Assembly (NCBI GenBank): GCA_951406725.2
Contig: OX597817.1
Location: 129,828,001-129,892,000, forward strand
Direction of reading: 5' to 3'
Source: Octopus vulgaris
Taxonomy: Eukaryota
Length of the DNA stretch: 64,000 bases
In this document: positions 23,931 to 61,781 of the stretch, in pieces
Numbering within the stretch: position 1 is the stretch's first letter
Layout: each line of letters begins with the position of its first letter
Program-made: the position numbers and the translations under genes
The notes under the pieces: model-generated
What the model was told of the DNA's origin: nothing
Seen by the model: only the letters and a program-made list of their open reading frames with translations
Database searches by the model: none

Positions 23931-24155
23931 TATTTCTTTACTACCCACAAGGGGCTAAACACAGAGGGGACAAACAAGGACAGACAAACGGATTAAGTCG
24001 ATTACATAGACCCCAGTGCGTAACTGGTACTTAATTTATCGACCCCGAAAGGATGAAAGGCAAAGTCGACCTCGGCGGAATTTGAACTCAGAACGTAACG
24101 TCAGACGATATACGGCTACGCATTTCGCCCGGCGTACTAACGTTTCTGCCAGCTC
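23931..24155 (-). mobile_element. tRNA-derived SINE, family B (Meta/MESC-like central domain), young copy
   Basis: Minus strand reads GCTGGCAGAAACGTTAG...GAGTTCAAATTCCGCCGAGGTCGACTTTGCCTTTCATCCTTTCGGGGTCGATAAATTAAGTACCAG. Near-identical copies at 45321-45552 and 60400-60622. Confidence 0.85.
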
Positions 24156-30445: not shown

Positions 30446-30474
30446 GATAAAGATCTTATTAATAGCCAGCAATA

Positions 30475-32105
30475 CGGTTGCGGCCAAAATGTTCAGAACG
30501 GCATTGTTTTCGTCAGAAAAGTAGGTATAAGTTTTTATCAAAGTTGTTTTATTTTCTATAATTTTCACAGACAATAAATAGGATATTAATTGTTATTGTC
30601 TGAGATTTTGGTATAATTTGAGAGGATAATACAAAAGTTATGGATGACTCAGTGATTTACTGCAAAACCCATGGCGACCAAAAGGATCAGAACGGTTGCT
30701 TTTACTCCGTATTTTAGTATATTTAACCGGTGAACTTTAATGTTTTGAATTTGTTTACCTGGCGGTTCGTTTACTAAACATTAGTAAGAGTATCTGCAGT
30801 GTACTTTGTTAATATAATGCCACTTACTCCGTTACCAATTCGTCAGCAGATTATTAAGCTTCGAAAGAAGGATAATTTAAGTATTGGGTCTATTGCAAAG
30901 ATTGTTAACAAGTGAAAAAGTGTTGTTCACGATATTCTTAAGGTCTACGATGATTGTGGTTCGTGTAAAGCAAGAAAGTCTACAGGTAGGTCAAGAAAAA
31001 CGGCCAAGAGAGAAGATCGTGCTATGGTAAAGTTGGTTAAAAAGGACAGATTTAAAACTGCTGCTGCTGTTTCTCGGGAAATGAGCATTGTACTGAAGAA
31101 AACTTTATTTCGAAAAACTGTGTCTCGTCGTTTAGTTGAACATGACCTACAAGCAAGAGCACCTGCAGTGAAGCCACTCATCATCTCCAAGAATAAAAAG
31201 TGTCGTCTTACCTTTGCAACTGAACATGTGTTGTGGTCTCAAGAAAAATGACAAACGGTGCATTTCCGTGATGAATCTAAGTTTATGTTATTTGGCTCAG
31301 ATGGGAAAAGGTACGTTTGTCGAAAAGCAGGTGAAAAATTGTCGCTTAAATGCCTTAAGACTAGTGTTAAATTCGGTAGAGGAAGTGTCATGGTTTGGGG
31401 GATGATATCTGGAGTTGGTATGGGCCCTTTGGTGCAATTACATGGAAAGGTAAATGCAGGAGTTTATAAACAACTTGTAAAAGATCATGTCTTGCCTGTG
31501 CTGAGAAATTCAACTAAGCGATCACCCATATTCATGCAGGACAATGCCCCATGTCACAAGGCTAAGGTGGTCATGAACTTCCTCAAGGCTGAAAAGATTA
31601 TTGTTATGGATTGGCCTGCTCAAAGCCCTGATCTTAATCCTATTGAAAATGTGTGGAATATTCTAGGAGAACGTTTGAAAGCCAAAAATCCTAAAACAAC
31701 CGAGCAATTATGGAATGCCCTTCAGGAAGAATGGAATAAGATCACCCAGCAAGAAATTGAAAATTTAATTTCCTCATGCAGTCGAAGATGTCAAAGTGTG
31801 ATTGAAGCTAAAAGGCTTCACACTAAATATTAAAAAATTCCAGTATTTTCTGTCATTCTTGATTATTTTGTTATTTTTTTTCAACCGTTCTAATCATTTT
31901 GGCCGCCATGGGTTTTGCAGTAAATCACTAAATCATCCATAACTTTTGTATTATCCTCTCAAATCACACCAAAATCTCAGACAATAATAATTAATATTGT
32001 ATTTATTGTCTGTGGAAATTATAGAATATAAAACAACTTTGATAAAAACTTATACCTACTTTTCTGACGAAAACAATGCCGTTCTGAACATTTTGGCCGC
32101 AACTG
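30475..32105 (+). mobile_element. Full-length Tc1-family DNA transposon (1631 bp, IR/DR-type long TIRs, TA target-site duplication)
   Basis: TA|CGGTTGCGGCCAAAATGTTCAGAACGG ... CCGTTCTGAACATTTTGGCCGCAACTG|TA. Inverted repeats of ~220 bp, each with an inner copy of the terminal motif (~30671-30697 and ~31882-31910). Confidence 0.97.
30817..31833 (+). pseudogene. Tc1 DD34E transposase, 338 codons, two in-frame TGA stops, no frameshift
   Basis: MPLTPLPIRQQII...GRSRKT...FRDES...MQDNAPCH-...-SPDLNPIENVW, with 34 residues between the second D and the E. Stops at 30913-30915 and 31249-31251. Confidence 0.93.
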
Positions 32106-32404
32106 TATATTTAAACATTTTCACGAGGTTTGTAATGAGAGAAACTAAATTCATTGGTTGTAGTTGATTCAATGTTCACTACCAATGGAAACTGGAACGT
32201 GAAACGATGAGCAGTGGATTTTAGCTTACAGTAAATAGATACAACCATAAAATGCATATTGTTTAATATTTTTCTTCTAGATGAGCAAAAACGTTTCATA
32301 TCATGCTGCACTTCGACAGGTGACGAGCGGCACATCGTGCACCAATAAAGGCAATATCGATTTGTTTGGGGGAGTGAGCTAACGTATATCACAAAATAAT
32401 CTAT

Positions 32405-33773: not shown

Positions 33774-34197
33774 TACTCTTTTACTCTTTTACTTGTTTCA
33801 GTCATTTGACTGTGGCCATGCTAGAGCACCGCCTTTAGTCGAGCAAATCGACCCCAGGACTTATTCTTTGTAAGCCTAGTACTTATTCTATCGGTCTCTT
33901 TTGCCGAACCGCTAAGTTACGGGGACGTAAACACGCAAGCATCGGTTGTCAAGCGATGTTGGGGGACAAACACAGAGACACAAACATATACAAACATACA
34001 TATATATGCATATATGTATGTATATATATATATGCGACAGGCTTCTTTCAGTTTCCGTCTACCAAATCCACTCACAAGGCTTTGGTCGGCCCGAGGCTAT
34101 AGTAGAAGACACTTGCCCAAGGTGCCACGCAATGAGACTGAACCCGGAATCATGTGGTTGGTAAGCAAGCTACTTACCACACAGCCACTCCGACGCC

Positions 34198-34198
<1 letters not shown>
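33774..34198 (-). mobile_element. SINE family A, full-length young copy
   Basis: Head GGCGTCGGAGTGGCTGTGTGGTAAGTAGC, CORE-like GCACCTTGGGCAAGTG, internal (TA/TG)n and a (AGTAAAAG)n tail. Confidence 0.9.
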
Positions 34199-34231
<33 letters not shown>

Positions 34232-34236
34232 TTCAT

Positions 34237-35086
34237 ATACTAAGCAATTAAGGGTTTAGCAACGAATTGCCTCACCACACACCGAATTTAGAAATAGCAG
34301 TCAAAAAGTTATAGCTATTCTTTCTACTAAAAGGGAGATCTCAGTAAAAACACAGCACTTGAAAGGCAAACACAGACAGGTAAGAGAGAATGAAATGACG
34401 GTAATCTATCATACAATTTTAAGTCACCTACGGACGTACGTTTCGAAATTAAGTTTTAGGGAAGCATAAGAATTAGATAATTATATCTTACCCAACTTCT
34501 TTTCTCATCAGCGTAGGACACTACAATTATGAATAATTGTATATTAAATTTCGAGATACTAGAAGGCATCATCTCAACTCAGTATCAGAGCTAGCTAAAG
34601 CCGTTACCAGTACCACCAAATTCAAAGTGTGAATGAAAGTTTGTGTCACCAGCCCCTTCCCACCCGCGTGTAGCCAAGACAAGATGCTGTGGTCATTTAC
34701 TGGGATGAAATATGGTTATCAGTAACAATATAGGGTGAAATTAATTAATTTGGAATAATTATTAATTACACCAAGTAGATTTCGGTATGTAAAAGCCTCA
34801 TTCGAGGAAAATTTAAGTAATACTAAGCAATTAAGGGTTTAGCAACGAATTGCCTCACCACACACCGAATTTAGAAATTGCAGTCAAAAAGTTATAGCTA
34901 TTCTTTCTACTAAAAGGGAGATCTCAGTAAAAACACAGCACTTGAAAGGCAAACACAGACAGGTAAGAGAGAATGAAATGACGGCAATCTATCATACAAT
35001 TTTAAGTCACCTACGGACGTACGTTTCGAAATTAAGTTTTAGGGAAGCATAAGAATTAGATAATTATATCTTACCCAACTTCTTTT
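34237..35086 (-). mobile_element. HHR-containing non-coding retroelement, 1.46 tandem copies of a 583-bp unit (retrozyme-like or non-autonomous Penelope-like)
   Basis: 34237-34503 is directly repeated at 34820-35086 with 2 mismatches in 267 bp. No ORF of 60 aa or more in the track. Carries a hammerhead ribozyme. Confidence 0.8.
34427..34517 (-). ncRNA. Type I hammerhead ribozyme with a 60-nt stem II
   Basis: CCTACG CTGATGA GAAA...(hairpin)...TTTC GAAA C GTAC G TC^ CGTAGG. Stem I is 6 bp, the core is intact, the loop III tetraloop is palindromic, and the site is GUC (cut at 34433/34432). Confidence 0.9.
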
Positions 35087-35237
35087 GACAAATTAAAATG
35101 TTTCAATGTTGATAAATTAGCATGTTCAAACCATATATATAGATATACATCATACATATATACATAATCCATGTGTGTTTGTGTGTGTGCATGTGTGTGC
35201 GTGCGTGCTTGTGTGTGAGTATGTGTTTGTGTGTGTG

Positions 35238-35302
<65 letters not shown>

Positions 35303-36209
35303 ATATATGTGTGTATGCATTAGACTGAACCACTAAAACTTGCTGTACTGCAATAGGCTTACTCTATATTATAATTACGCTGTTAATAAAGCAAGAACAC
35401 AAATTTCTTTTTAAACTCGTGATTTCATTAGTATTCATCTTATATTAACATTCTGGCATCTCTCTCTCTTTCTAGAACTCGGTTTGTTCTCGGGTAGTTC
35501 GTCTTTTACTAAACAGTGACTATCATTATACAGAATTAAGTGCAGGATTTTACATGCATGAGAGAAAAAAGAAAAGGCGCTAAGTTCCGATAAATTGAAC
35601 AGATATTTTCATCTCCTTTCTTGAAAATGGAAAAGCATATAGATTTGTTCTTGGAATCAGAAAACTATTGCTTTTGGGACCAGATCTTTTGACAAATGTT
35701 TGCGAGAATATTTATGTTTCCATTGCTACGTGCTTTAAACCGTTCAGTTGGGAATTCATCTACACCAGCCATGTTTCCATTCTTAATTTCCTTTAAAGCT
35801 TTTCCATCTTCTGCTTCCATAATCAAAGTAGTCAATATTAACATGTTCCAGTGACTTTATCAGATTCTTTAAATGCATTTCCGTGCATTACTTCTATTTT
35901 TCTTTGATTCGGTTTTCTTCAGATTGAGTGTCATCACTCATGTTTCTTTCTAATCGCAAGAAATCTTGGAGAAAATTCGTTTCTTATTTGTTTTATTTAG
36001 CAGTTCTAATATTTGATACAACACCCACGGTTGAAAAAAAATCAAACCAATCTTCTGTCAAAATATAATTCAGTCGCTCGATAAATATCGATCGAGAAAA
36101 TAGCTGTTAGATCCGATATAATTGACTAAAACCGTTTCAGATAGTTTCACTGCATAGTCGTAATGGAACGATAGAAACCGGTAAAAGAAGAAAAGTATAT
36201 ATATATATA

Positions 36210-36590
36210 TAATAAAAGGGTTCAGCAAAGATTTGCTTCACCACACACCGAAGTTTAGAAAAAGCAGCCAAAAATCTTAGCTATTTCTTCTACTTTAAAA
36301 AGGGTCTCCCAGAGAAGCCAAAATACTTGAAGGTTATTCACACAGGCAGAGAGTAAAGCAACGAAAATCAATCAATATCTGATCGTCCATGGACGCCCGT
36401 TTCTGAATTAGGTTTTTCATAAAGAATATAAAATTATACTTTACTAACCATATTCTTCATCAGCATGGCTTTCCACGATAATTCGAATAGTTGAACGAAT
36501 CTTTCCACCTAACGGCATTAGACCGCTGATGTTCAATGTTAACACCGCCAAATTCAAAATATGAATGAGGTTCGCTTAACTTCCCCCGAA
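36210..36590 (-). mobile_element. Diverged sister family of the 583-bp HHR element
   Basis: Collinear homology with 34245-34670 (agggtt.agcaa.ga.ttgc.tcaccacacaccgaa; cac.gccaaattcaaa.t.tgaatga). Has the same 3' end next to (TA)n. Confidence 0.8.
36387..36468 (-). ncRNA. Type I hammerhead ribozyme with a 53-nt stem II
   Basis: CCATG CTGATGA A GAAT..GGTT..TAAAG...CTTTA..AACC..ATTC A GAAA C GGGC G TC^ CATGG. Confidence 0.85.
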
Positions 36591-36608
36591 AGTAAAGAAA
36601 GAAGGAGG

Positions 36609-36643
36609 ATTTAACGTTTCGAGCGGAGCTCTTCGTCAGAAAC
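36609..36643 (-). ncRNA. Minimal (Penelope-type) hammerhead ribozyme in a truncated copy (36595-36714) of the ~205-bp element
   Basis: GTTT CTGACGA A GAGC TCC GCTC GAAAC GTT^ AAAT. Intact core with a palindromic, loopless stem III. Confidence 0.75.
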
Positions 36644-36710
36644 ATAGCAAAAGGAAAGATCCAAGGAAGGGAAGACCGAAGAAAAAAAATCGCCAACGAT
36701 ACGCACGCGG

Positions 36711-36800
<90 letters not shown>

Positions 36801-37248
36801 CTTTGTTTATCAATGGTAAAAGTTTTAAATTATGAATTAGAAAAACATCTTCAAAAGTTTCAATGGTGACAAATTAAAATGTTTCAATGTTGATAAATTA
36901 ACATGTTCAAAACAAATTTAGCAATGTGAATTATGACACGTGTAAGTTTGAATGTTCATAGCAGTCAATAATATTAAAACTATATATCACTTTTGTTAGA
37001 ATGTACAAAGTTCATTATTTTAGTGATGGTCGACAAGTCATACTGAAAAAAACAAGTATGAATTTGGCTTACAGATTCTCTGATCCTATTCTAGGGGACG
37101 CTTTCGCTTGTAGTGGTATGGTTTGTGATCAGATGTATTTATACTTTTTTTCCGCGGAAAAAAGTATAAATACATATATGATGACAAAACATACCTCTGT
37201 AAACCAAAATACTTTTTTTACTATTTTCATTTCACAGTTGTTTTATCA

Positions 37249-37334
<86 letters not shown>

Positions 37335-37486
37335 CATATATACGATGGGCTTCTTTCAGTTTCGTCTACCAAATCCACTCGCAAAGCTTTGGTCAGCTCA
37401 GCGCTATAGTAGAAGACACTTACTCAAGGTGCCACGCAGTGGGAGTGAACCCGGTTGGTAAGTAAGTTACTTACTGCAGAGCCACT

Positions 37487-37572
<86 letters not shown>

Positions 37573-37655
37573 GGTCCCGGGTTGATTCGGGGTTAACCAC
37601 AGTAAAAAAGGTACTCAATACATAGCAGAGTAAAATTAATTTATTATATAGAAGG

Positions 37656-37704
37656 AGCTTCTACAGGACTAGAACTGTTTCATTCAAGAGAAATCATCAG
37701 GAAG

Positions 37705-37706
<2 letters not shown>
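37656..37706 (-). ncRNA. Type I hammerhead ribozyme in a ~140-bp insert (37570-37708) within (TA)n
   Basis: AGCTTC CTGATGA T TTC TCTT GAA T GAAA CAG TTCTAGTC CTG TA^ GAAGCT. Stem I is 6 bp, stem III is 4 bp, the site is GUA, and AATAAA lies downstream. Confidence 0.88.
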
Positions 37707-37770
<64 letters not shown>

Positions 37771-37774
37771 TCCG

Positions 37775-37818
<44 letters not shown>

Positions 37819-37998
37819 GGTATATTTATTTTATCTTATTTTATCTAGTTTCAGCTCACGAGCTGTGGCCATGCTGGGGCACCGCCATTATATGTATATA
37901 TAATGCATATATGTATATATAATGTATATATGAATATATGCATATATGTATATATCTGTATACACACACACGCGTGCATGCACGCACACGCACGCACA

Positions 37999-38037
<39 letters not shown>

Positions 38038-38134
38038 GATGTTAAAGAAGTATTTCCACAATTCTATATTCTGAGATGGGGAATCTATATTATGTACACT
38101 AATTACATTAGCTGGAACCGAGTTCGACGCAAAA

Positions 38135-38176
38135 CACCTGAAGATGGCTGGAGCTAACAACGGCCGAAACGTAGTG
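38135..38176 (+). ncRNA. Minimal (Penelope-type) hammerhead ribozyme
   Basis: CAC CTGAAGA T GGCTG GAGCTAACAA CGGCC GAAAC GTA^ GTG. Confidence 0.8.
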
Positions 38177-38297
38177 AAAGTAACAATCAAGATGAGGACA
38201 CTAGTCTAACTAATGTAAATAGTGTACATAAGTATTTCCACTCTATATATTGAGTATTTAGCTTTAAACTCTGCTTCTTAAACACAATATACATCAG

Positions 38298-38373
<76 letters not shown>

Positions 38374-38377
<4 letters not shown>

Positions 38378-38705
38378 AAGCTTTATGAAAATAGACAAAA
38401 AGACGCAGCCAGGTTTACGGAAATAAACAAAAGACGAAGGCAGGTGGAATACAAACAAACAATTGTATTAGTATGGCGCTCAGGAAATATAAATGAAACA
38501 AGTCTTTAACGTTTCGAGCCTACGCTCTTCAACAGAAATATACACAGAGAAAATAAACACAGAAAGAAGGAGAAAAAAAAATATGCGTGCAGAAGCTAGC
38601 GAAACAACATGGCGATCTGATTTCAGCCAGAAGTCAAAGATCAAACATGAGACGCAAGAGCGAAATTAGGGAAGATAATAGGGTTGAATGACCCCGCTCA
38701 AACAT
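38374..38705 (-). mobile_element. Penelope pLTR-like element with a variant minimal HHR (38505-38538)
   Basis: TTT CTGTTGA A GAGC GTAG GCTC GAAAC GTT AAA (core change A6U). The downstream ctgagcg.ca...aata tract is homologous to the ~205-bp family. The 3' end abuts (TA)n. Confidence 0.65.
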
Positions 38706-39186
38706 AAGAGTGTGTGTGTGTGTGTGTGTGTATGAGAAGAGTGTGTGAGAGAGTATTAGTGCGTATGAGAGGTCTAGACGTGTGTATGTATATATGATGT
38801 GATGTGTAAAGTCGTATGGTGTAGTGTAGAGAGAGGAGAAGAGGGGGTATATATATACTGTATATGCGTGGCTATACAAATACACGCACGCACACACATG
38901 CAGTGACATACACACTTCGAAATGTGGAGTAGATGAAACAAAGGCGACTGAAGAAGGGGAATTTTCTTTGTATTGTATGTCCTGTACTCTATTTTTCCTT
39001 TGTTTAAGAAAAATGTCCATTTCCTTGGTTTTGTGTTTATGTTTTCGTTTCTCATTGTGTTCGACGTTTTTCGTTTCTCGTTTTTTTGGTGTCCTGTACT
39101 CATATATGCATGTATATATACATGTAAAGGTAGGTACGTACATATATGTATGTATATATGCATGTTTTATTTATTTATTAATTTAT

Positions 39187-39256
<70 letters not shown>

Positions 39257-39939
39257 TATACTGTATATGTGTGTATACAAATATACGCACACACACACAT
39301 GTAGTGACGTACACACACATACACACACAATTGTTGCGCACACATTGAGTTCTTTCACTTTGTGGTTTGACAACTATTACCACTTCTACATACATACACT
39401 CACAAGGGCATGCACGCAGACGCGCACACTCATACACACACTCACACTTACATATGCGCGTGCTAAGGCCCTCTCTTTTCCTCTCTCTCTCACCCCTCCA
39501 GATCACATGTCAGACGTTGACTTCATCTCCACAGTGATTTTTCAAGCAAACGTTTCAGTGAGAGGAGCAGGTGGAGGAGATGGAGTAGTAGTAGTATTGG
39601 TAGTAGTAGTAGTAGTAGTAGTAGGAGGAGGAGGAGGAGGAGGAGACGGAGAGGAGGAGGAGGAGGAGAAGGAAGGGAGGAAGTTATGAGGGACACGACG
39701 TCAAGGTGGGCATAGCTATGAAGAATCAAAGCCAAAAGTCAAATCATATAAAACAAACAACAGATTTATTATTAAGCATCCCCGGCAGAAATAACAATAA
39801 TAATAATAACAACAACAACATTAGCAACATAGGCATCAACTGTTACAGTGGCAACAACATCAACAGCAGCAATAGCAGCAGCAGCATTTTCAGATACAAA
39901 TGGCGGCTGTTAACTAGAGATGTGTGAGGTGAGAACAGT

Positions 39940-40357
39940 TCATGATAGTAGAGGTGGTGGTTGTAATAGTATTAGAGAAATAGCGGGTGATGGTGGTGGT
40001 TGTGGTTGTGGTTGTGGTGGTTGTGGTGGTTGTGGTGGTGATTCTGGTGGTGGTGATGGCGGTGGTGTTTATGGCAACGATGATTATAATGGTGGTGGTG
40101 ATGTTGGCGGTGGTATTAGTGGTGACGGTGGTGGTGGGGGTGATGATGTGGTAGTAGTGTTAGTGGTGGCAGCAGCAGTGGTGATAGTGATGGTAGTGGT
40201 TGTAATGCTGTCTCTCGTGGTGATGGCAGTGGTGGTGGCGATAGTAGTAGTAGTAGTAATAATAGATTTGTCGCTAGTCGTGGTGGTAATGTTGGTGGTA
40301 CTAAGCAGTAATGGTTGTGACGGTGGTGGTAGCAGTGGTGGTGATGGTGGCGGTGAC

Positions 40358-40407
<50 letters not shown>

Positions 40408-40408
40408 T

Positions 40409-40468
<60 letters not shown>

Positions 40469-40533
40469 TGTAGTAGTAACAGCAGCAGCAGTATTAGTAG
40501 TCGTAGTAGTAGTCGTAGTCGTAGTAGTAGTGA

Positions 40534-40567
<34 letters not shown>

Positions 40568-40731
40568 TGTAGTAGTAGTAACAGCAGCAGCAGTATTAGT
40601 AGTCGTAGTAGTAGTCGTAGTCGTAGTAGTAGTGATAGTAGTAGTAGTAGTAGTAGTAGTAGTTGTAGTAGTAGTAACAGCAGCAGCAGTATTAGTAGTC
40701 GTAGTAGTAGTCGTAGTCGTAGTAGTAGTGA

Positions 40732-40778
<47 letters not shown>

Positions 40779-40873
40779 GTAGTTGTAGTAGTAGTAACAG
40801 CAGCAGCAGTATTAGTAGTCGTAGTAGTAGTCGTAGTCGTAGTAGTAGTGATAGTAGTAGTAGTAGTAGTAGC

Positions 40874-40921
<48 letters not shown>

Positions 40922-40950
40922 TAGCAGTAGTTGTTGTGGTGGTAGTGACG
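39940..40950. repeat. (GGT)n/(AGT)n/(AGC)n tract with higher-order repeat
   Basis: A variant-triplet block recurs at 40466, 40565, 40661 and 40781. Confidence 0.9.
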
Positions 40951-41429
40951 ATAGAACCACCAGGGGAGGTTTGAACGTCTGCATGGAAAAATGCTGCGTC
41001 AACGTCAGCTGACATCTGTTTCTCCTTAAAGGCAACAGGTTATCGCTGTCTCCTCCCCAATTCCCGTCTCCTCATCACCGGCACCGCTGAACCCGCTGGG
41101 CCCTGTTGTTGTCGTTCTCTCTGTCGCATTGCAATCATTATGCCTTCAACCGATGTTTTAACTCCAAGGCAATACGTCACGGCCGCCATTATACTTTTCA
41201 ACATTTATCTTGTGTCAAGAACGTTACTGGAATACATTTTCCTCAATCTTAATCCATATCTTTGCTGCACAGAAGTTTCCAGTTGACAATACAGTCATCA
41301 TGATCATAATTATCATCACCATCAACAGCAACAGCAACAGCTCCAATAGTAGCAGCACCACCAATCCCTACCAGCAGCAGCAGCAGTACCACCACCACCA
41401 CCACCATCACCACCACCACCACTACCACC

Positions 41430-41461
<32 letters not shown>

Positions 41462-41566
41462 CAACAACATATCACATGGCTTTTATTGATTTTTATTTCA
41501 AATATTAACAAGGATTTATGCATGTATATCTATAAGTATGTATGTTTATAACAATCTATATAAATG

Positions 41567-41630
<64 letters not shown>

Positions 41631-41670
41631 TGGAGAAGAGAAATAGAGAAATTACGCGTGCGTTCGGTCA

Positions 41671-41875
41671 TATAGTAATATAATAAATAAATAAAATATA
41701 TGTATATATACATACATATATGTACATACTTACATCTACGTGTATATATACATTCATACATATATATATATGAGTACTCATATATATATATATGTATGCA
41801 TGTATATATACACGTAGATATAAGTATGTACATATATGTATGTATATATGCATATATTTTATTTATTTATTATAT

Positions 41876-41882
<7 letters not shown>
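41671..41882. repeat. Spacerless palindrome of ~210 bp
   Basis: Arms of 105 and 107 bp centred on gagt|actc (41775/41776), with about 3 mismatches and one TA indel. Confidence 0.85.
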
Positions 41883-41967
<85 letters not shown>

Positions 41968-41998
41968 ATATATATATTCAAGATGTGACATTCAAAAT

Positions 41999-42201
41999 GT
42001 GACCGCGTGTTTTTTTTTGGCGATTTTTTTCCCTCTGTCTTCCCTTCTCTGGATCTTTCCTTCTCCTATGTTTCCGACGAAGAGCTCCGCTCGAAACGTT
42101 AAACCCTCCTTCTTTCCTTCTTTCCTGAGTGTCCAATAATACTATATTTGTTCCACGTCCTCGCGTTGTTGTGTTTTTTTGTGCTTTCTTGTTTGGATTA
42201 A

Positions 42202-42203
<2 letters not shown>
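41999..42203 (+). mobile_element. ~205-bp Penelope pLTR-like element with a variant HHR (42070-42104)
   Basis: GTTT CCGACGA A GAGC TCC GCTC GAAAC GTT AAAC. Begins gtgaccgcgtg and ends tttggattaac followed by (TA)n. Confidence 0.75.
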
Positions 42204-42278
<75 letters not shown>

Positions 42279-42322
42279 TACATACGTACATACATACATA
42301 GATACATACATACATACATACA

Positions 42323-42370
<48 letters not shown>

Positions 42371-42406
42371 AGCATTCATACATACACGTACATATATATA
42401 CGAATA

Positions 42407-43389
42407 CAGAGTGCGAGGGGTATTTGAGGACACTTAATTATCAGTATGTCGCTCTGTTCAAACCAATTAAAACGGATTTTGTTTCTTTCAGATCCCTCCA
42501 AACAGATAAGATGCAAACACAAGAAATGAGAAGACATGCAACCATAGTCGCAACGTTTGAGGAAAACAGCGATTTACAAATTGCCAATTTTCTAAATGAT
42601 TCAAGATCTTTTGTTCACAAAGATCAGATTGGAAACATCTGGCGGCAATACTTTAACATATCAAAGACAAAAAGACATTCTAAACGTTCGGATACTGTAA
42701 GGAAACAACAATTTACCCAGCGGTATCAAAACATTAGCGATGATGGTCCCACATCATCAATGAAGGTTGTCGCCAAAGAACTTTCAGGTGTCGGACTAGA
42801 GTATCAGAACTGTGGTGCATGAGGACATTAGACACAAATCGTGTGTACTGAGAAGAGGCCAATTCATGTGTGCGAAGACACAAGAAAGCCATTTGATTCG
42901 TGACAAGCAGTTACCAAACAAGGTGACATCGCTCACTAACACGGCATGCTTTGGTTCTTTTCTGAAAAAAAAAAAAATCGACTAAGACAAAAAGTCTAAC
43001 TGGTGAAATGACATACGGTTATGTGTGGGTCCTTCTGTTGCCCTCAGAGTGGTGCATATTAAGTTTCCAGCAACGGTGATTAACGAAGATCATATCATGC
43101 TATCTCGCATATTTCAACAGGGTCTTAGAATTAATACTACTGGATACGTTTCGGTGCTGGAGGGAGTTGTTAAGCCCTGAATGGATGAAGTACGTAGTGG
43201 AAGGCCATACGTGTTTCAACAAGACGGTACCCAAGAATGGATGTCAGACAATCTTGACAATCATGTAGTACTGAAATTGTGGCCTCCAAACTCGGGATTT
43301 AAATCCCATGCACTACTGCCTTTGGAAAATACACTAGTGTTGTTTTATTAAAGTTTTCAAATATGTTCTCAAATCGTGTCACACCTTCT
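42407..43389 (+). mobile_element. Decayed Tc1/mariner-superfamily element, maT (DD37D)-like
   Basis: TA|cagagtgcgaggggtatttgagga ... ttctcaaatcgtgtcacaccttc|TA. Translates to QEMRRHATIVA...SDLQIANFL, YVFQQDG..TQEWMSDN and LWPPNS.DLNPM.Y..W. Confidence 0.8.
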
Positions 43390-44413
43390 ATATATACATA
43401 CATGGATAAATCCACATACACATACAAAGCATGCATGCAATCCCGGGTTCTATCCCGATTCATGGCTTCGTGGGCAATTGTTTACAACAGAATCAGGCTG
43501 ACCTGAGTGAAACTGGGCAAAATGAAACTATTTAGAAGTCATTCGGAATGTCTGTACTTGTAATTACCTCACATTGCCTCAAACGGTTTTATACTGAAAA
43601 ACTATAAAGCAAGTTCGAACGAACACCTAGATGACGGTCGCTCAGTGTGTTAAAAATAGCAGAAAAATGTCTGCCAAAGGAAATCCTACGTGGCTTAAAT
43701 AAAAAAAAGGAAGTATTACTCCTAAATATAGCTTTCAAAATGTGGTGGTCAGAATTGGAATGTTTTTGATTATATGTCTACTCGATAAGTGTAACCTAGG
43801 GCTAAAAAACAACGAGTAAGATATCGAAAGTACTGAGACGAGATTCGATCTAATTAATATATTCTTTCTTGTTCTCTTTCCTTCTGGCAATGTTTCTGTT
43901 TTTCTGATTTCTACGTCTGTCGTTCAAATATTCATTTATCCTTTCTTTTATGCTTTCCTTCTTTCTTTCTTTTCTTGATTTCCTCTTTTCATCCTCTTTC
44001 GTTCTCTCATCTCATCTCCCTCTATTTCTTTCTCCCCTTCCTCCTTCTTCTTTTTCTCCTACGCATACACATACAAATATGTAACCTTACATACATACGC
44101 ACACATACGATATTCTATTTCTCTCTCACTCCCGCTCCTCTGTCCCGCTTACTCCCACTCCCACTCCTACTCGCCTCTCACTCTAAATATTTGCAGTTCT
44201 TTTTTTATCTATTAGTATCACAATGTCGGTACCAAATTACCGCTTGCCAGTCATGTTCGGCAGACGACACAGTAGAGACGAGATTGAGTTTTCAATATGG
44301 CTTTACAAAGTCTAATTGTATTAATGTATATGTGAAGATAAGACTATGTAAATAAATATATGAGAATGCGTATATGTGTATATGCGCGCGCACAAACACA
44401 CACACACACACAC

Positions 44414-44482
<69 letters not shown>

Positions 44483-44554
44483 CACACACACATAAATGTT
44501 TGCATATGCTCTTTTTACTCTTTATCTCTCTGTCTCTCTCTTTATATATATACT

Positions 44555-44606
<52 letters not shown>

Positions 44607-44713
44607 CATACATACACACACATATATATACATACATTACATACATGCATACATACATATATATATATGCGTGTGTTTATAAATATATAAATATACATAT
44701 ATACACACATACA

Positions 44714-44778
<65 letters not shown>

Positions 44779-45320
44779 GTATATGTATATATATGTGTGC
44801 ATATGCATAGACAGATAGAGACAGAGAGACCATAAAATAATAATAGAGGGGTTGGCTGCAACCATGACAGAAATAATGGAATAGCTACATAATTAAAGAA
44901 TGCATTGTTTCAATTGAAAATTGGTTGCTCTGCAGCAAATCTATATCCTGCTGTGTAACCTCAGGCAAGTCTACTCGGACATATGCCTAGGTTTCATCCA
45001 ATCTTTTATTTTTCTAATTTTTAAGTGTTAAATATTTTGGACTATATTAGCCTGTCTGTTTTACTATTGTTTTCTTTCTTTTTTTTCAAGTGTTTTGGCT
45101 TTTGGGTTAAAGTTAATTGCAATTCTAAGCAGATTCAGAGACCATATATAAGTTGGTTCGTTGGCCCTATATTTTCTTTTGTAATTGTTGATTAGTATCG
45201 TGTCATAATCTGACTAACAATACTTCTGATTAAAGTGCCGTGGACAAAACTCAGGACCTTTCAGGCACTTTTATAACTATTTGTCGATTGAAAATAATAA
45301 AAATGTATATATACTATATA

Positions 45321-45552
45321 TATTTCTTTACTAACCACAAGGGGCTAAACACAGAGGGGACAAACAAGGATAGACAAACGGATTAAGTCGATTGCATCGA
45401 CCCCAGTGCGTAACTGGTACTTAATTTATCGACCACGAAAGGATGAAATGCAAAGTCGACATCGGCGGAATTTGAACTCAGAACGTAACGGCAGACGAAA
45501 TACCGCTAGGCATTTCACCCGGCATGCTAATGTTTCTGCCAGCTCGCCGCCG
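45321..45552 (-). mobile_element. SINE family B
   Basis: Near-identical to 23931-24155. Confidence 0.85.
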
Positions 45553-45615
45553 TATATATACTATATAGTTATGTAGAGACTTCTAACTTTCCTGCTTGTT
45601 CTACCAAACCTATGT

Positions 45616-45817
45616 GTGACCTCGTGTGTACCGTTGGCGATTTTTTTCCTCTGTCTTCCCTTCTCTGGATCTTTCCTTCTCCTATGTTTCCGACGAAGAG
45701 CTCCGCTCGAAACGTTAAGCCCTCCTTCTTTCCTTCTTTCCTGAGCGTCCAAAACTACTATATTTGTTCCACGTCCTCGCGTTGTTGTGTTTTTTTTGTG
45801 CTTTCTTGTTTGGATTA

Positions 45818-45820
<3 letters not shown>
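45616..45820 (+). mobile_element. ~205-bp Penelope pLTR-like element with a variant HHR (45686-45720)
   Basis: Same boundaries and sequence as 41999-42203, followed by (TA)n. Confidence 0.75.
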
Positions 45821-45875
<55 letters not shown>

Positions 45876-45922
45876 CCAATGAAAAGACGATAAAGAAAAT
45901 TCTTTAACACATCTTTAATTAT

Positions 45923-46040
45923 AAGTTACTAATGTTTCCGTACCTTCCGCATTTGCAATGTCAATTTACGCGAAAATTCTAAAAGAAAAATCACGTAATA
46001 TTTATGGTTTTAGACAGTGGAGAGGCACTTCATCAGACTT
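45923..46040 (-). ncRNA. Type I hammerhead ribozyme with a 91-nt stem II, in an insert (~45872-46265) flanked by (TA)n
   Basis: AAGT CTGATGA A GTGCCT.TCC..TGTC...TTACGTGA...TCGCGTAA..GACA...GGA AGGTAC G GAAA C ATTA G TA^ ACTT. Confidence 0.8.
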
Positions 46041-46406
46041 GCATTAAAGGTATGCTACATATATACTGCCGGATTGATGGTGCTGTCCGGGTGTCGAAAG
46101 CATAATGAAATCTGTTTTAGCAGCTGATAATGGGTATGCATATATGTTACATTTTTTTGTGGTTTCATGATTTTTTGAGATTACTTACAATGATATTGAT
46201 TGTTTTTCTTAATAATCTTAGATAACGCTTAGACATTGGCGTCTTGTATTGATGAGATTTTGTGGCATATATATATATATATATATATACATACATTTTC
46301 CGATTTGAAATCACAATTTTTAAATACAAACAAATGACCGTAACTCACAAAGCCTTTCTGGTTTGTTTACAAATATTACACACACACACACAGTGATAAA
46401 CAAAGA

Positions 46407-52531: not shown

Positions 52532-52741
52532 TCTACTCAAGGTACAAGGCCCGAAATTTTGAGGGAAAGAGCCAGTCGATTTGATAGACACCAGTTCGCA
52601 ACTGGTATTTAATTTATCGACCTCGAAGGGATGAAAGGCAAAGCTGACCACGTCAAAATTTGAACTCAGAACGTAAAGACAGACGAAATACCTATAAGCA
52701 TTTCGCCCGGCTTGCTAACGTTTCTGCCAACTCGTCGTCTT
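52532..52741 (-). mobile_element. SINE family B variant
   Basis: ctggtatttaatttatcgacctcgaagggatgaaaggcaaag...tttgaactcagaacgtaa...gctaacgtttctgcca. Confidence 0.8.
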
Positions 52742-59336: not shown

Positions 59337-59541
59337 GTGATCGCGTGTATACCGTTGGCGATTTTTTTCCCTCTGTCTTCTCTTCTCTGGATCTTTCCTT
59401 CTCCTGTGTTTCCGACGAAGAGCTCCGCTCGAAATGTTATACCCTCCTTCTTTCCTTCTTTCCTGAGCGTCCAATAATACTATATTTGTTCCACATTCTC
59501 GCGTTGTTGTGTTTTTTTGTGCTTTCTTGTTTGGATTAACT
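59337..59541 (+). mobile_element. ~205-bp Penelope pLTR-like element with a degenerate HHR (59408-59442)
   Basis: Same family and boundaries as 41999-42203. Motif reads CCGACGA A GAGC TCC GCTC GAAAT GTT. Confidence 0.72.
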
Positions 59542-60157: not shown

Positions 60158-60356
60158 GTACTTTTATTTGCTTCAGTCATTTGACAGCAGCCATGCTGGA
60201 GTACCGCCTTTAGTCGAGTAAATCGCCTCCAGGACTTATTCTTTGTAAGCCCAGTACTTATTCTATCGGTCTCTTTTGCCGAACCGCTAAGTTACAGGGA
60301 CGTAAGCACACCAACATCGGTTGGCAAGCGATGTTAGAGGGACAAACACAGACACA

Positions 60357-60401
<45 letters not shown>

Positions 60402-60618
60402 CTGGCAGAAACGTTAGCACGCCGGGCGAAATGCGTAGCTGTATTTCGTCTGTCGTCACGTTCCGAGTTCAAATTCCGCCGAGGTCGACTTTGCCTTTCA
60501 TCCTTTCGGGGTCGATAAATTAAGTACCAGTTACACACTGGGGTCGATATAATCGACTTAATCCGTTCGTCTGTCCTTGTTTGTCCCGTCTGTGTTTAGC
60601 CCCTTGTGGGTAGTAAAG

Positions 60619-60649
<31 letters not shown>

Positions 60650-60812
60650 CGACGGGCTTCTTTCAGTTTCCGTCTACCAAATCCACTCACAAGGCCTTGG
60701 TCGGCCCGAGGCTATACTACAAGACACTTGCTCAAAGTGCGACGCTGTGAGACTGAACCCGGAACCATGTGGTTGGTGAGCACGCTACTTGCCACACAGC
60801 CACTCCTGCGCC
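60158..60812 (-). mobile_element. SINE family A with a family B SINE (60400-60622, +) nested in its internal microsatellite
   Basis: Family A 3' half at 60158-60360 and 5' half at 60648-60812 flank a complete family B copy in the opposite orientation. Confidence 0.88.
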
Positions 60813-61781
60813 TATGAACACAGCCACTACATATATATATATGTATATATATAAATATATATGTATGTGTGTATGTATATATATATTTTTAATATGTATT
60901 ATACATATGCACACAAAATTGTATAAGAGACGCCATAAAATTTCGTGGTAAGTTTGTGTCTGTATATATATGTATATCTATGTGTATATGTATAGGTGCG
61001 TGCATTAATGTACGTGTTTATGTGTGTGTGCAAGCACAAACACATACACACGTATGCATACACACATACACACACACACACACTTATGGTAGAGTGAATA
61101 TGCGTCTGTATGCACGCACATCCGTAGTTCCATATTATTCTCTGCCATTTTCATAGTATATACTTATATACGCATACACACCCATACATATAAAAATATA
61201 TATACATACAAATAAACACACACACACGCACACACGCACATACATATATATATATATATATTATGCACACATGAACTTACACACACAAACACACAGTTAT
61301 GGTGTGTGCAAAGTAATGAAATGACTTTAATCCAAACAGTAAGTAAACATGATGAAATCAATAGCTGGGTCTACAAGCAAATATCTTCTCTACTCAGTGA
61401 AATAATAAATGTGCAATGCAGTAGATACGTCTGAGCAAATATCCTTTCTGCCACGATGGATATTTCTAATTTAATTTGGTCACGTCAACCGATTAAGGGT
61501 CTGACAATTGATGCGTTCTTATTTGTGTTTGTGTGTTTCTGTGTCTCTGCGGTTATCTACACGTGTGTCTATAAGAATGCCTTTCTCCTTCATGCATGCT
61601 CTATATTTCCTCTTTCCCATCGTACTTACATGTACGCACACACACACACACTCACACACATACATGTATATATATATATGTATGTATATATGTGTATGTA
61701 TATATATATATATACGAATATATATGTATATATATATATATATATATATCGATAAAATATTTATATGTAAATATATTCACA

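What the first reader, a model, noticed from the sequence alone, without database searches (positions are those of the whole stretch)
34427..46040. Hammerheads with unusually long stem II (60, 53 and 91 nt)
Three type I HHRs (34427-34517, 36387-36468, 45923-46040) have an intact core, a short stem III with a tetraloop, and a long, bulged rod in place of the usual short stem II. Two of them have a purine-purine opposition (A.A or A.G) at the base of stem II instead of the canonical G-C. Descriptor and covariance-model searches with short stem II limits would probably miss these, so they may be an under-described structural variant. The 45.9-kb example shows no obvious sequence similarity to the other two, which suggests the architecture recurs independently.
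Basis: partly seen in the sequence, partly recalled or inferred. Interest (0 to 1): 0.75.

Follow-up and report, generated by a model that had tools for sequence, protein, structure and literature searches.

The report
Long-armed hammerheads in mobile repeats
These are three genuine-looking self-cutting hammerhead RNA motifs at the ends of mobile repeats in an animal (probably octopus) genome; their second arm is two to four times longer than published search patterns allow, so such ribozymes are easy to miss, but they are a variant of a known kind.

Summary
All three motifs are present at the stated coordinates, on the minus strand, with stem II of 60, 53 and 91 nt (3 matches against a mean of 0.01 in shuffles). 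H1 (34.4 kb) and H2 (36.4 kb) are homologous, so there are two lineages, not three. H1 and H2 show compensatory changes in stems I and II. In contigs from four DNA runs, the H2 family has a self-complementary loop III, as H1 does, which is the mark of hammerheads that cut as dimers, and the A.A at the base of stem II is the majority state. H1 sits in a partial tandem inserted in (TA)n whose lowest-energy fold already forms an active site. Best reading: 3' ends of truncated Penelope-like retroelements; no RT or endonuclease was found, so membership is inferred. Rfam misses them, but it also misses short hammerheads nearby. Both odd traits have precedents in paper supplements: a mismatch at the stem II base, and a 54-nt stem II in a spike-moss element. 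H2 and H3 copies fold with the core sequestered. Cleavage is untested. Side finding: cephalopod Naiad 'half cores' read as non-circularly permuted hammerheads.

The parts
34427..34517 (-). H1: type I hammerhead; core 34505-34511, stem II 34445-34504 (60 nt, G10.1-C11.1), self-complementary loop III, predicted cut between 34433 and 34432 (GUC)
34237..34819 (-). 583-bp 5'-truncated repeat unit holding H1; its 3' end abuts a (TA/TG)n tract
34820..35086 (-). Upstream partial copy (265 of 267 identical to 34237-34503), truncated inside stem II: lacks CUGAUGA but keeps GAAAC-palindrome-GUC and the 3' arm of stem I (second cut site between 35016 and 35015)
36387..36468 (-). H2: homologue of H1; core 36457-36463, stem II 36404-36456 (53 nt, A.A then G-C), predicted cut between 36392 and 36391; this copy has a private change in loop III at 36397
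36217..36590 (-). Truncated repeat copy holding H2; 3' end at a (TA)n tract; last ~100 bp shared with a much larger repeat group
45923..46040 (-). H3: unrelated hammerhead; core 46030-46036, stem II 45939-46029 (91 nt, A.G then G-C), loop III not self-complementary, predicted cut between 45927 and 45926 (GUA)
45905..46057 (-). Extended stem I of H3 (18 bp in three segments); whole region folds at z -3.8
46068..46133 (+). Decayed match to the 3' 'half core' motif of Octopus Naiad elements, back to back with H3 inside one 390-bp stretch bounded by (TA)n
   Evidence: comparison beyond the two short motifs made by eye

Best explanation
The three motifs are type I hammerhead ribozymes in the 3' terminal repeats of 5'-truncated Penelope-like retroelements, or of their non-coding derivatives, inserted into (TA)n microsatellites. 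Stem III is too short to form alone, so two copies in one transcript pair through the self-complementary loop III, and each core cuts the other copy's GUC site; this would cut unit-length element RNA out of a tandem precursor. The long stem II is a family trait of H1/H2. It most likely works as a tolerated, structured extension pointing away from the core: its basal helix holds CUGAUGA and GAAA together, and the distal part carries terminal-repeat sequence. The A.A or A.G is an extra stacked opposition between A9.G12 and the G-C pair. H1 is a young, probably competent copy; the H2 and H3 copies are older and probably poor cutters. Shown here: motif anatomy, homology, covariation, family-wide palindrome and A.A, insertion context. 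Inferred: Penelope-like identity, dimer cleavage, role in transposition.
For: Covariation between H1 and H2: 4 compensatory double changes and 3 breaks among 15 Watson-Crick pairs of stems I and II; P 0.005-0.04 by simulation depending on the transition rate assumed. The distal helix changes length on both strands. In 4 of 4 runs laid, 98-100% of depth at 36397 carries the letter that makes loop III an 8-nt palindrome, different from H1's palindrome; A11.1 is replaced by C in only 21-31% of depth; no change of A10.1 to G is listed; the other listed stem II changes fall in the bulge and apical loop. For H1 the two-site dimer equals the lowest-energy fold (gap 0.0-0.1 kcal/mol per site; monomer 3.2-3.5), and in the real 691-nt read-through the lowest-energy fold already places H1's core on the half copy's cut site (gap 0; monomer 6.5). 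Partial tandem, 5' truncation and (TA)n flanks match the description of these elements (PMC8557442); palindromic loop III and dimer cleavage are described for their hammerheads (PMC4209133; PMC6765202).
Against: No RT or GIY-YIG remnant was identified next to any of the three. The two tandem copies at H1 end at the same base, so no 30-40 bp tail is seen. In H2 the core is predicted to pair with the distal strand of stem II (P 0.72; active fold 6-14 kcal/mol above the minimum as monomer and 5-8 per site as a dimer even with the family palindrome). In H3 the core pairs with loop III (gap 7.8) and only 4 of 8 loop III positions self-pair. Covariation rests on two sequences plus per-position tallies, not on haplotypes; contigs were selected for >=80% likeness to H2, and 9 rows of the difference table were not shown, among them one T>A place per run that could lie at 36404 or 36456. 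H3's family was not sampled. No cleavage or expression data.
Confidence: 0.7

Rival explanations
1. The H1/H2 family is a non-coding retrozyme with a unit of about 580 nt that is cut to monomers, circularised and reinserted by a Penelope-type enzyme in trans; it is not the truncated end of a coding element.
For: No coding remnant found; the H1 locus is about 1.5 head-to-tail units; retrozyme units of 51-972 bp derived from these terminal repeats are reported (bioRxiv 10.64898/2026.07.22.740005).
Against: The upstream copy has no complete hammerhead. Loose ends beyond the 3' end of H2-family contigs are mostly AT-rich with only about 0.7 agreement, not one constant next-unit sequence (392 loose-end rows were not shown).
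Confidence: 0.15
2. The long stem II is a selected functional domain, for example a docking site for the element's protein, an off-switch that hides the core until a chaperone acts, or the carrier of a 5' splice site of a terminal-repeat intron.
For: The insert is kept with compensatory changes across about 30% divergence. A Penelope-type hammerhead from Anolis cut only when the element protein was added (PMC11167929). H2 has an 11-bp helix hiding the core. GUAAG(A)/GUAAAG in stem II and a pyrimidine tract ending in AAG downstream are seen by eye in both H1 and H2.
Against: The core-hiding helix is absent in H1 (P 0.005). Joining the putative splice sites gives no lasting reading frame (by eye). 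Conserved pairing is also what a merely tolerated insert needs. H3's insert shares nothing with H1/H2.
Confidence: 0.2
3. The motifs are fossils: once-active ribozymes whose long or mismatched stem II is decay, or which no longer cut.
For: H2 carries a private loop III change and 3 broken pairs; H2 and H3 fold with hidden cores.
Against: The long insert and A.A are family-wide in 4 of 4 runs; H1's duplication differs at 2 of 267 bases, so that insertion is recent, and its fold is active-like. This rival fits the H2 and H3 copies but not the family.
Confidence: 0.1
4. H3 is not the end of a separate element but an antisense ribozyme inside a Naiad-like element, which would then carry self-cleaving motifs on both strands.
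For: H3 and the Naiad-like motif share one 390-bp stretch bounded by (TA)n on both sides.
Against: The published Octopus Naiad 3' UTRs show no antisense copy of H3 upstream of that motif (by eye); inverted truncated neighbours are common for these elements.
Confidence: 0.2

Closest known systems
[quoted passage not shown]
   Same: Type I order, 1-2 bp stem III with palindromic loop, extra base after A9, optional extra base before GAAA (descriptor Fig. S7; one AGAAA entry among 56 in Fig. S3), dispersed truncated copies, dimer mechanism.
   Different: Stem II region 53-91 nt here against at most 24 nt plus two optional bases in the descriptor; no RT or endonuclease shown here.
PLE-X1_sMoe and PLE-X1_sTam hammerheads of spike mosses (Craig et al. 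2021, PMC8557442, File S2)
   Same: Type I hammerheads in Penelope-like elements with 54-nt and 48-nt stem II regions, flagged there as deviating from the canonical structure.
   Different: Plant, endonuclease-less elements targeting rDNA; no covariation or dimer analysis given in the rows I saw; H3's 91 nt is longer.
Hydra-clade hammerheads (Craig et al. 2021, File S2), including Hydra-1_oBim from Octopus
   Same: (TA)n targets; an unpaired opposition at the base of stem II (U.U in 14 of 34 rows).
   Different: Short stem II, 3-4 bp stem III; the listed Octopus motif does not resemble H1-H3.
Non-LTR retrozymes (Cervera and de la Pena 2020, PMC7229834; bioRxiv 10.64898/2026.07.22.740005)
   Same: Non-coding repeats with type I hammerheads and weak stem III; a U.U at the base of stem II is reported in axolotl.
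   Different: They are tandem arrays with a complete ribozyme in each unit and short stem II with loop 1-loop 2 contacts; here copies are dispersed and truncated.
Rfam hammerhead families (clan with Hammerhead_1, RF00163; accession recalled)
   Same: Catalytic core letters and three-way junction.
   Different: No match at E<=10.

Membership tests
Hammerhead ribozyme, type I | CUGANGA, GAAA and NUH in the order C-G-S with A15.1-U16.1 | tested here: met
   All three: CUGAUGA, GAAAC, GUC/GUC/GUA
Hammerhead ribozyme, type I | Stems I, II and III can form, with covariation | tested here: met
   H3 by folding only
Hammerhead ribozyme, type I | Standard pair at 10.1-11.1 next to the core | tested here: not met
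   Met in H1; H2 has A.A and H3 A.G before the G-C pair. Natural exceptions are published
Hammerhead ribozyme, type I | Match to an Rfam hammerhead model | tested here: not met
   short hammerheads in the same stretches are missed too
Hammerhead ribozyme, type I | Active fold is the favoured fold | tested here: inconclusive
   Yes for the H1 dimer and read-through; no for the H2 and H3 copies
Hammerhead ribozyme, type I | Site-specific self-cleavage | not testable with these tools
   Needs in vitro assay or raw RNA reads; only contigs were listed
Hammerhead ribozyme, type I | Tertiary contact between stems I and II | not tested
   No search for loop-loop or pseudoknot contacts was run
Dimer-cleaving hammerheads of Penelope-like elements | Very short stem III with self-complementary loop | tested here: met
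   H1 8 of 8; H2 family majority 8 of 8 (window copy 6 of 8); H3 only 4 of 8
Penelope-like element | RT plus GIY-YIG endonuclease ORF | tested here: inconclusive
   Copies are 370-580 bp; two short frames gave no homologue; no genome held
Penelope-like element | Partial tandem with 5'-truncated upstream copy (pseudo-LTR) | tested here: met
   H1 locus; not seen at H2 or H3
Penelope-like element | Insertion in (TA)n microsatellites | tested here: met
   Flanks of all three; loose ends at 36217 in 4 of 4 runs
Penelope-like element | 30-40 bp tail at one end only | tested here: not met
   The two H1 copies end at the same base
Non-LTR retrozyme | At least two tandem units each with a complete hammerhead | tested here: not met
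   The upstream H1 copy lacks CUGAUGA; H2 and H3 are single
Non-LTR retrozyme | Circular monomer RNA | not testable with these tools
   No RNA run was laid; only contigs were listed

The most novel reading that the evidence does not exclude
Cephalopod Penelope-type elements use hammerhead architectures that current searches cannot see: long-stem-II dimer ribozymes whose insert is a selected protein-docking or regulatory domain, arisen in at least two lineages, and, in the Naiad clade described as lacking hammerheads, a non-circularly permuted (S-G-C) hammerhead; H3 and the decayed Naiad-like motif would be one small element with ribozymes on both strands.
Probability: 0.2. Interest if true: 0.78.

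Novelty: new variant of a known kind. Interest (0 to 1): 0.47.

Why it matters
Counts of hammerheads in animal genomes come from descriptors with short stem II limits. A repeat family found in four differently labelled organisms, with a conserved 53-60 nt stem II, shows these counts miss whole families, and that 'no hammerhead' calls for retroelement clades need re-checking. H1 offers a ready natural construct (a full ribozyme plus a half copy in one transcript) to test dimer cleavage and what a long stem II does. The chemistry and the host element type are known, so this extends the family's range and does not open a new class. The Naiad side finding bears on a stated open point, namely why Naiads seem to lack hammerheads.

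Tried and rejected
Whole-window Rfam scan: the 150 rows shown of 280 were microsatellite-driven, none a hammerhead; 130 rows were not shown, so I rescanned the three stretches. No genome is held, so no genome-wide alignment was possible. Family pattern in metagenome contigs: 2 matches, both bacterial-looking sequence without stem I, rejected as chance. Viral contigs: 1 of 120 core matches passed both stems, treated as background; scan truncated. Protein searches with a 41-aa frame upstream of H3 and a 33-aa frame upstream of H1 found nothing; both are weak tests. The frame at 35400-35900 looks by eye like an unrelated RTE-type LINE fragment. A family-wide 'anti-core' off switch was rejected because H1 lacks it (one search used slightly wrong H1 coordinates, corrected in 73). 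Stem II as a self-contained intron: too short and no branch-to-AG spacing (by eye). No RNA holder listed for the stretch; no RNA run was laid. Earlier-finding look-ups by sequence, by place and one word search were blank. Lunse et al. 2017 on Penelope hammerhead variants could not be read and Arkhipova et al. 2017 was not read; either may already show long stem II forms. Supplements of the 2026 preprint are closed.
Full report
Observation. H1 (34427-34517) has a 6-bp stem I, CUGAUGA, a 60-nt stem II region closed by G10.1-C11.1, and GAAAC-GUAC-GUC. H2 (36387-36468) has a 5-bp stem I, 53 nt with A opposite A and then G-C, and GAAAC-GGGC-GUC. H3 (45923-46040) has 91 nt with A opposite G and then G-C, and GAAAC-AUUA-GUA; its stem I extends to 18 bp, and the region folds at z -3.8. 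A relaxed descriptor finds these 3 and nothing else in the window, against a mean of 0.01 in 300 local shuffles. Of 120 viral-contig loci that match the core letters, 1 passed the same stem tests. The inserts of H1 and H2 alone are only weakly structured (z -1.3, -1.5; H3 -3.4).

Setting. The window is microsatellite-rich animal DNA of about 36% G+C. No genome is held. A stretch next to H3 matches the 3' end of published Octopus Naiad consensus sequences (beyond two short motifs the comparison is by eye), so the host is probably an octopus. H1 lies in a 583-bp unit (34237-34819) preceded by a 267-bp partial copy that differs at 2 bases and is truncated inside stem II. All three elements end at (TA)n tracts. 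H1 and H2 align over about 400 nt, including stem II (z 4.9), the downstream part (z 31) and the upstream part (z 9); H3 aligns with neither (one weak score, 7 of 500 shuffles, for the AT-rich downstream parts of H1 and H3). So the window holds two lineages.

Evidence of selection on the fold. Among 15 Watson-Crick pairs of H1's stem I and basal stem II, H2 shows 4 compensatory double changes and 3 breaks; simulation gives P 0.005, 0.015 and 0.044 for transition fractions 0.5, 0.67 and 0.8. The distal helix is 5 bp in H1 and 6 bp in H2, with one base added on each strand (register chosen by eye). I laid contigs of 4 of the 24 listed runs, labelled as four different organisms, on H2 at >=80% likeness; 1817, 1682, 1096 and 623 contigs were laid on the 526-base stretch, many of them on the shared 3' end or on a neighbouring repeat. 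At 36397, 98-100% of depth (26, 24, 17 and 10 contigs) has the letter that makes loop III an 8-nt palindrome, a different palindrome from H1's. At 36404 (position 11.1) 21-31% of depth has C in place of A. All T>C places in the tallies are accounted for elsewhere, so A10.1 is not changed to G at 10% or more. The A.A is therefore the majority state among these contigs and not a private mutation. A change at 36469 (36-58%) restores the sixth pair of stem I, though in three runs it lies 4 bases from contig ends; a change at 36391 (11-21%) makes a G-U. Other listed stem II changes fall in the internal bulge and the apical loop. Limits: these are per-position tallies from contigs selected for likeness to H2; depth is not copy number; 9 rows were not shown and include one T>A place per run.

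Mechanism. Short-stem-III hammerheads of Penelope-like elements are thought to cut as dimers through a palindromic loop III (PMC4209133, main text parts 1-2 of 4; PMC6765202, passages). For H1 the two-site dimer is the lowest-energy fold (gap 0.0-0.1 kcal/mol per site; monomer 3.2-3.5). In the natural 691-nt read-through, the lowest-energy fold already pairs H1's core with the cut site of the upstream half copy. H2 and H3 are different: in H2 an 11-bp helix between the core and the distal strand of stem II is favoured (P 0.72; gaps 6-14 kcal/mol, still 5-8 per site in a dimer with the family palindrome), and in H3 the core pairs with loop III (gap 7.8) and the loop is not palindromic. These copies are probably poor cutters or need a chaperone; an Anolis element's hammerhead cut only with its protein present (PMC11167929, passages). 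The core-hiding helix is absent in H1, so I do not take it as a family switch. The extra A.R next to A9.G12 could stack as a further sheared purine pair; this rests on recalled knowledge of purine-rich internal loops and was not tested. Cleavage, expression and any role in transposition are inferred.

Which element. Partial tandem, 5' truncation, (TA)n target and a hammerhead 55-195 nt from the 3' end fit Penelope-like elements (PMC8557442, passages). No coding evidence was obtained: two short frames found no homologue, and no tail is seen. The retrozyme definition of two complete units is not met (bioRxiv 10.64898/2026.07.22.740005, parts 1-2 of 5 and passages; supplements closed). I call it 'works like a Penelope terminal-repeat hammerhead', with membership unproven.

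Comparison with print. Rfam gives no hammerhead at E<=10 in the three stretches, but it also misses short minimal hammerheads that lie in two of them, so length is not shown to be the cause. The 2014 descriptor limits stem II to 3-7 bp and loop 2 to 3-10 nt, and would miss all three; it does allow an extra base on each side of the stem II base, and 1 of 56 listed motifs has AGAAA (whole supplement; row order suggests the Cotesia element, but columns were not kept). In Craig 2021 File S2, 14 of 34 rows have U.U at that position by my count, and two spike-moss elements have 54-nt and 48-nt stem II regions marked as deviating (supplement parts 2, 24, 25 of 59 and searches). U.U at 10.1-11.1 is also reported by Perreault 2011 (PMC3088659, passages) and Cervera 2020 (PMC7229834, passages). 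Where papers say 'long helix II' they mean 6-8 bp (PMC13725137 and PMC7936874, passages). Five full-text searches showed no paper devoted to long-stem-II hammerheads in animals or to octopus hammerheads; the giant squid genome paper only counts Rfam matches (PMC6962438, passages). Lunse 2017 was not available and Arkhipova 2017 was not read. One earlier scan note describes a bacterial type III hammerhead with a 77-base arm (unchecked).

Side finding. The Naiad 3' motifs marked 'half core' in Octopus and Euprymna read by eye as cut-site block, GAAA block, CUGAUGA block. Stem I is 6 bp in both and stem III 5 and 6 bp, perfectly paired with different sequences in the two genera; stem II is about 2 bp or absent. 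That order is the type-SGC permutation (PMC10085705, passages and section 13). Two searches showed no report of it in retroelements. A third Naiad end in the same part (Saccoglossus Naiad-1) did not show it by eye, and I did not examine the six other 'half core' families. The window's copy (46068-46133, plus strand) has changes at three core positions and looks dead. Whether it belongs to the same insertion as H3 is open.

Verdict. New variant of a known kind; interest 0.47.

Noticed in passing
window 46068-46133 (+); Naiad consensus sequences in PMC8557442 supplement parts 24-25: The 'half core' at the 3' end of Octopus and Euprymna Naiads reads as a non-circularly permuted (S-G-C) hammerhead with fully covarying stems I and III and almost no stem II. 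The window has a decayed copy back to back with H3. Possibly more novel than the finding itself.
   Followed up: partly
window 36613-36639 (-), 42074-42100 (+), 45690-45716 (+), about 59412-59438 (+): A second, common repeat family with a minimal hammerhead (12-nt stem II, extra A after A9, no loop III); three of the four copies have C for U4 and one also has a change after GAAA. Rfam misses the two copies that lay in the rescanned stretches.
   Followed up: partly
window 36208-36315 and 34240-34335: The last ~100 bp of the H1/H2 element draw up to about 40 times more depth than the hammerhead, so a larger repeat group shares this 3' end; a candidate site for reverse-transcription start or template recognition.
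   Followed up: no
window 36391-36225 (-) and 34432-34255 (-): An ATG lies one base after H2's cut site, and short similar peptides (IDFR..F.L and FLNSVCGEA..C-stop) can be read in both H1 and H2 downstream parts with frameshifts; may be only nucleotide homology.
   Followed up: no
window 35400-35900 (-): Broken reading frame that looks by eye like an RTE-type LINE reverse transcriptase fragment, unrelated to the hammerheads.
   Followed up: no
window 33794-34200, 23988-24155, 45367-45549, 52574-52737, 60161-60818: Several copies of two other dispersed short repeats, probably SINEs.
   Followed up: no
window 30472-30698 and 31882-32108: 227-bp inverted repeats, 94% complementary, 1.2 kb apart; possibly a non-autonomous DNA transposon.
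   Followed up: no
L050: The one viral-contig locus of 120 that passes both 4-bp stem tests with a 43-nt stem II region; treated as background.
   Followed up: no
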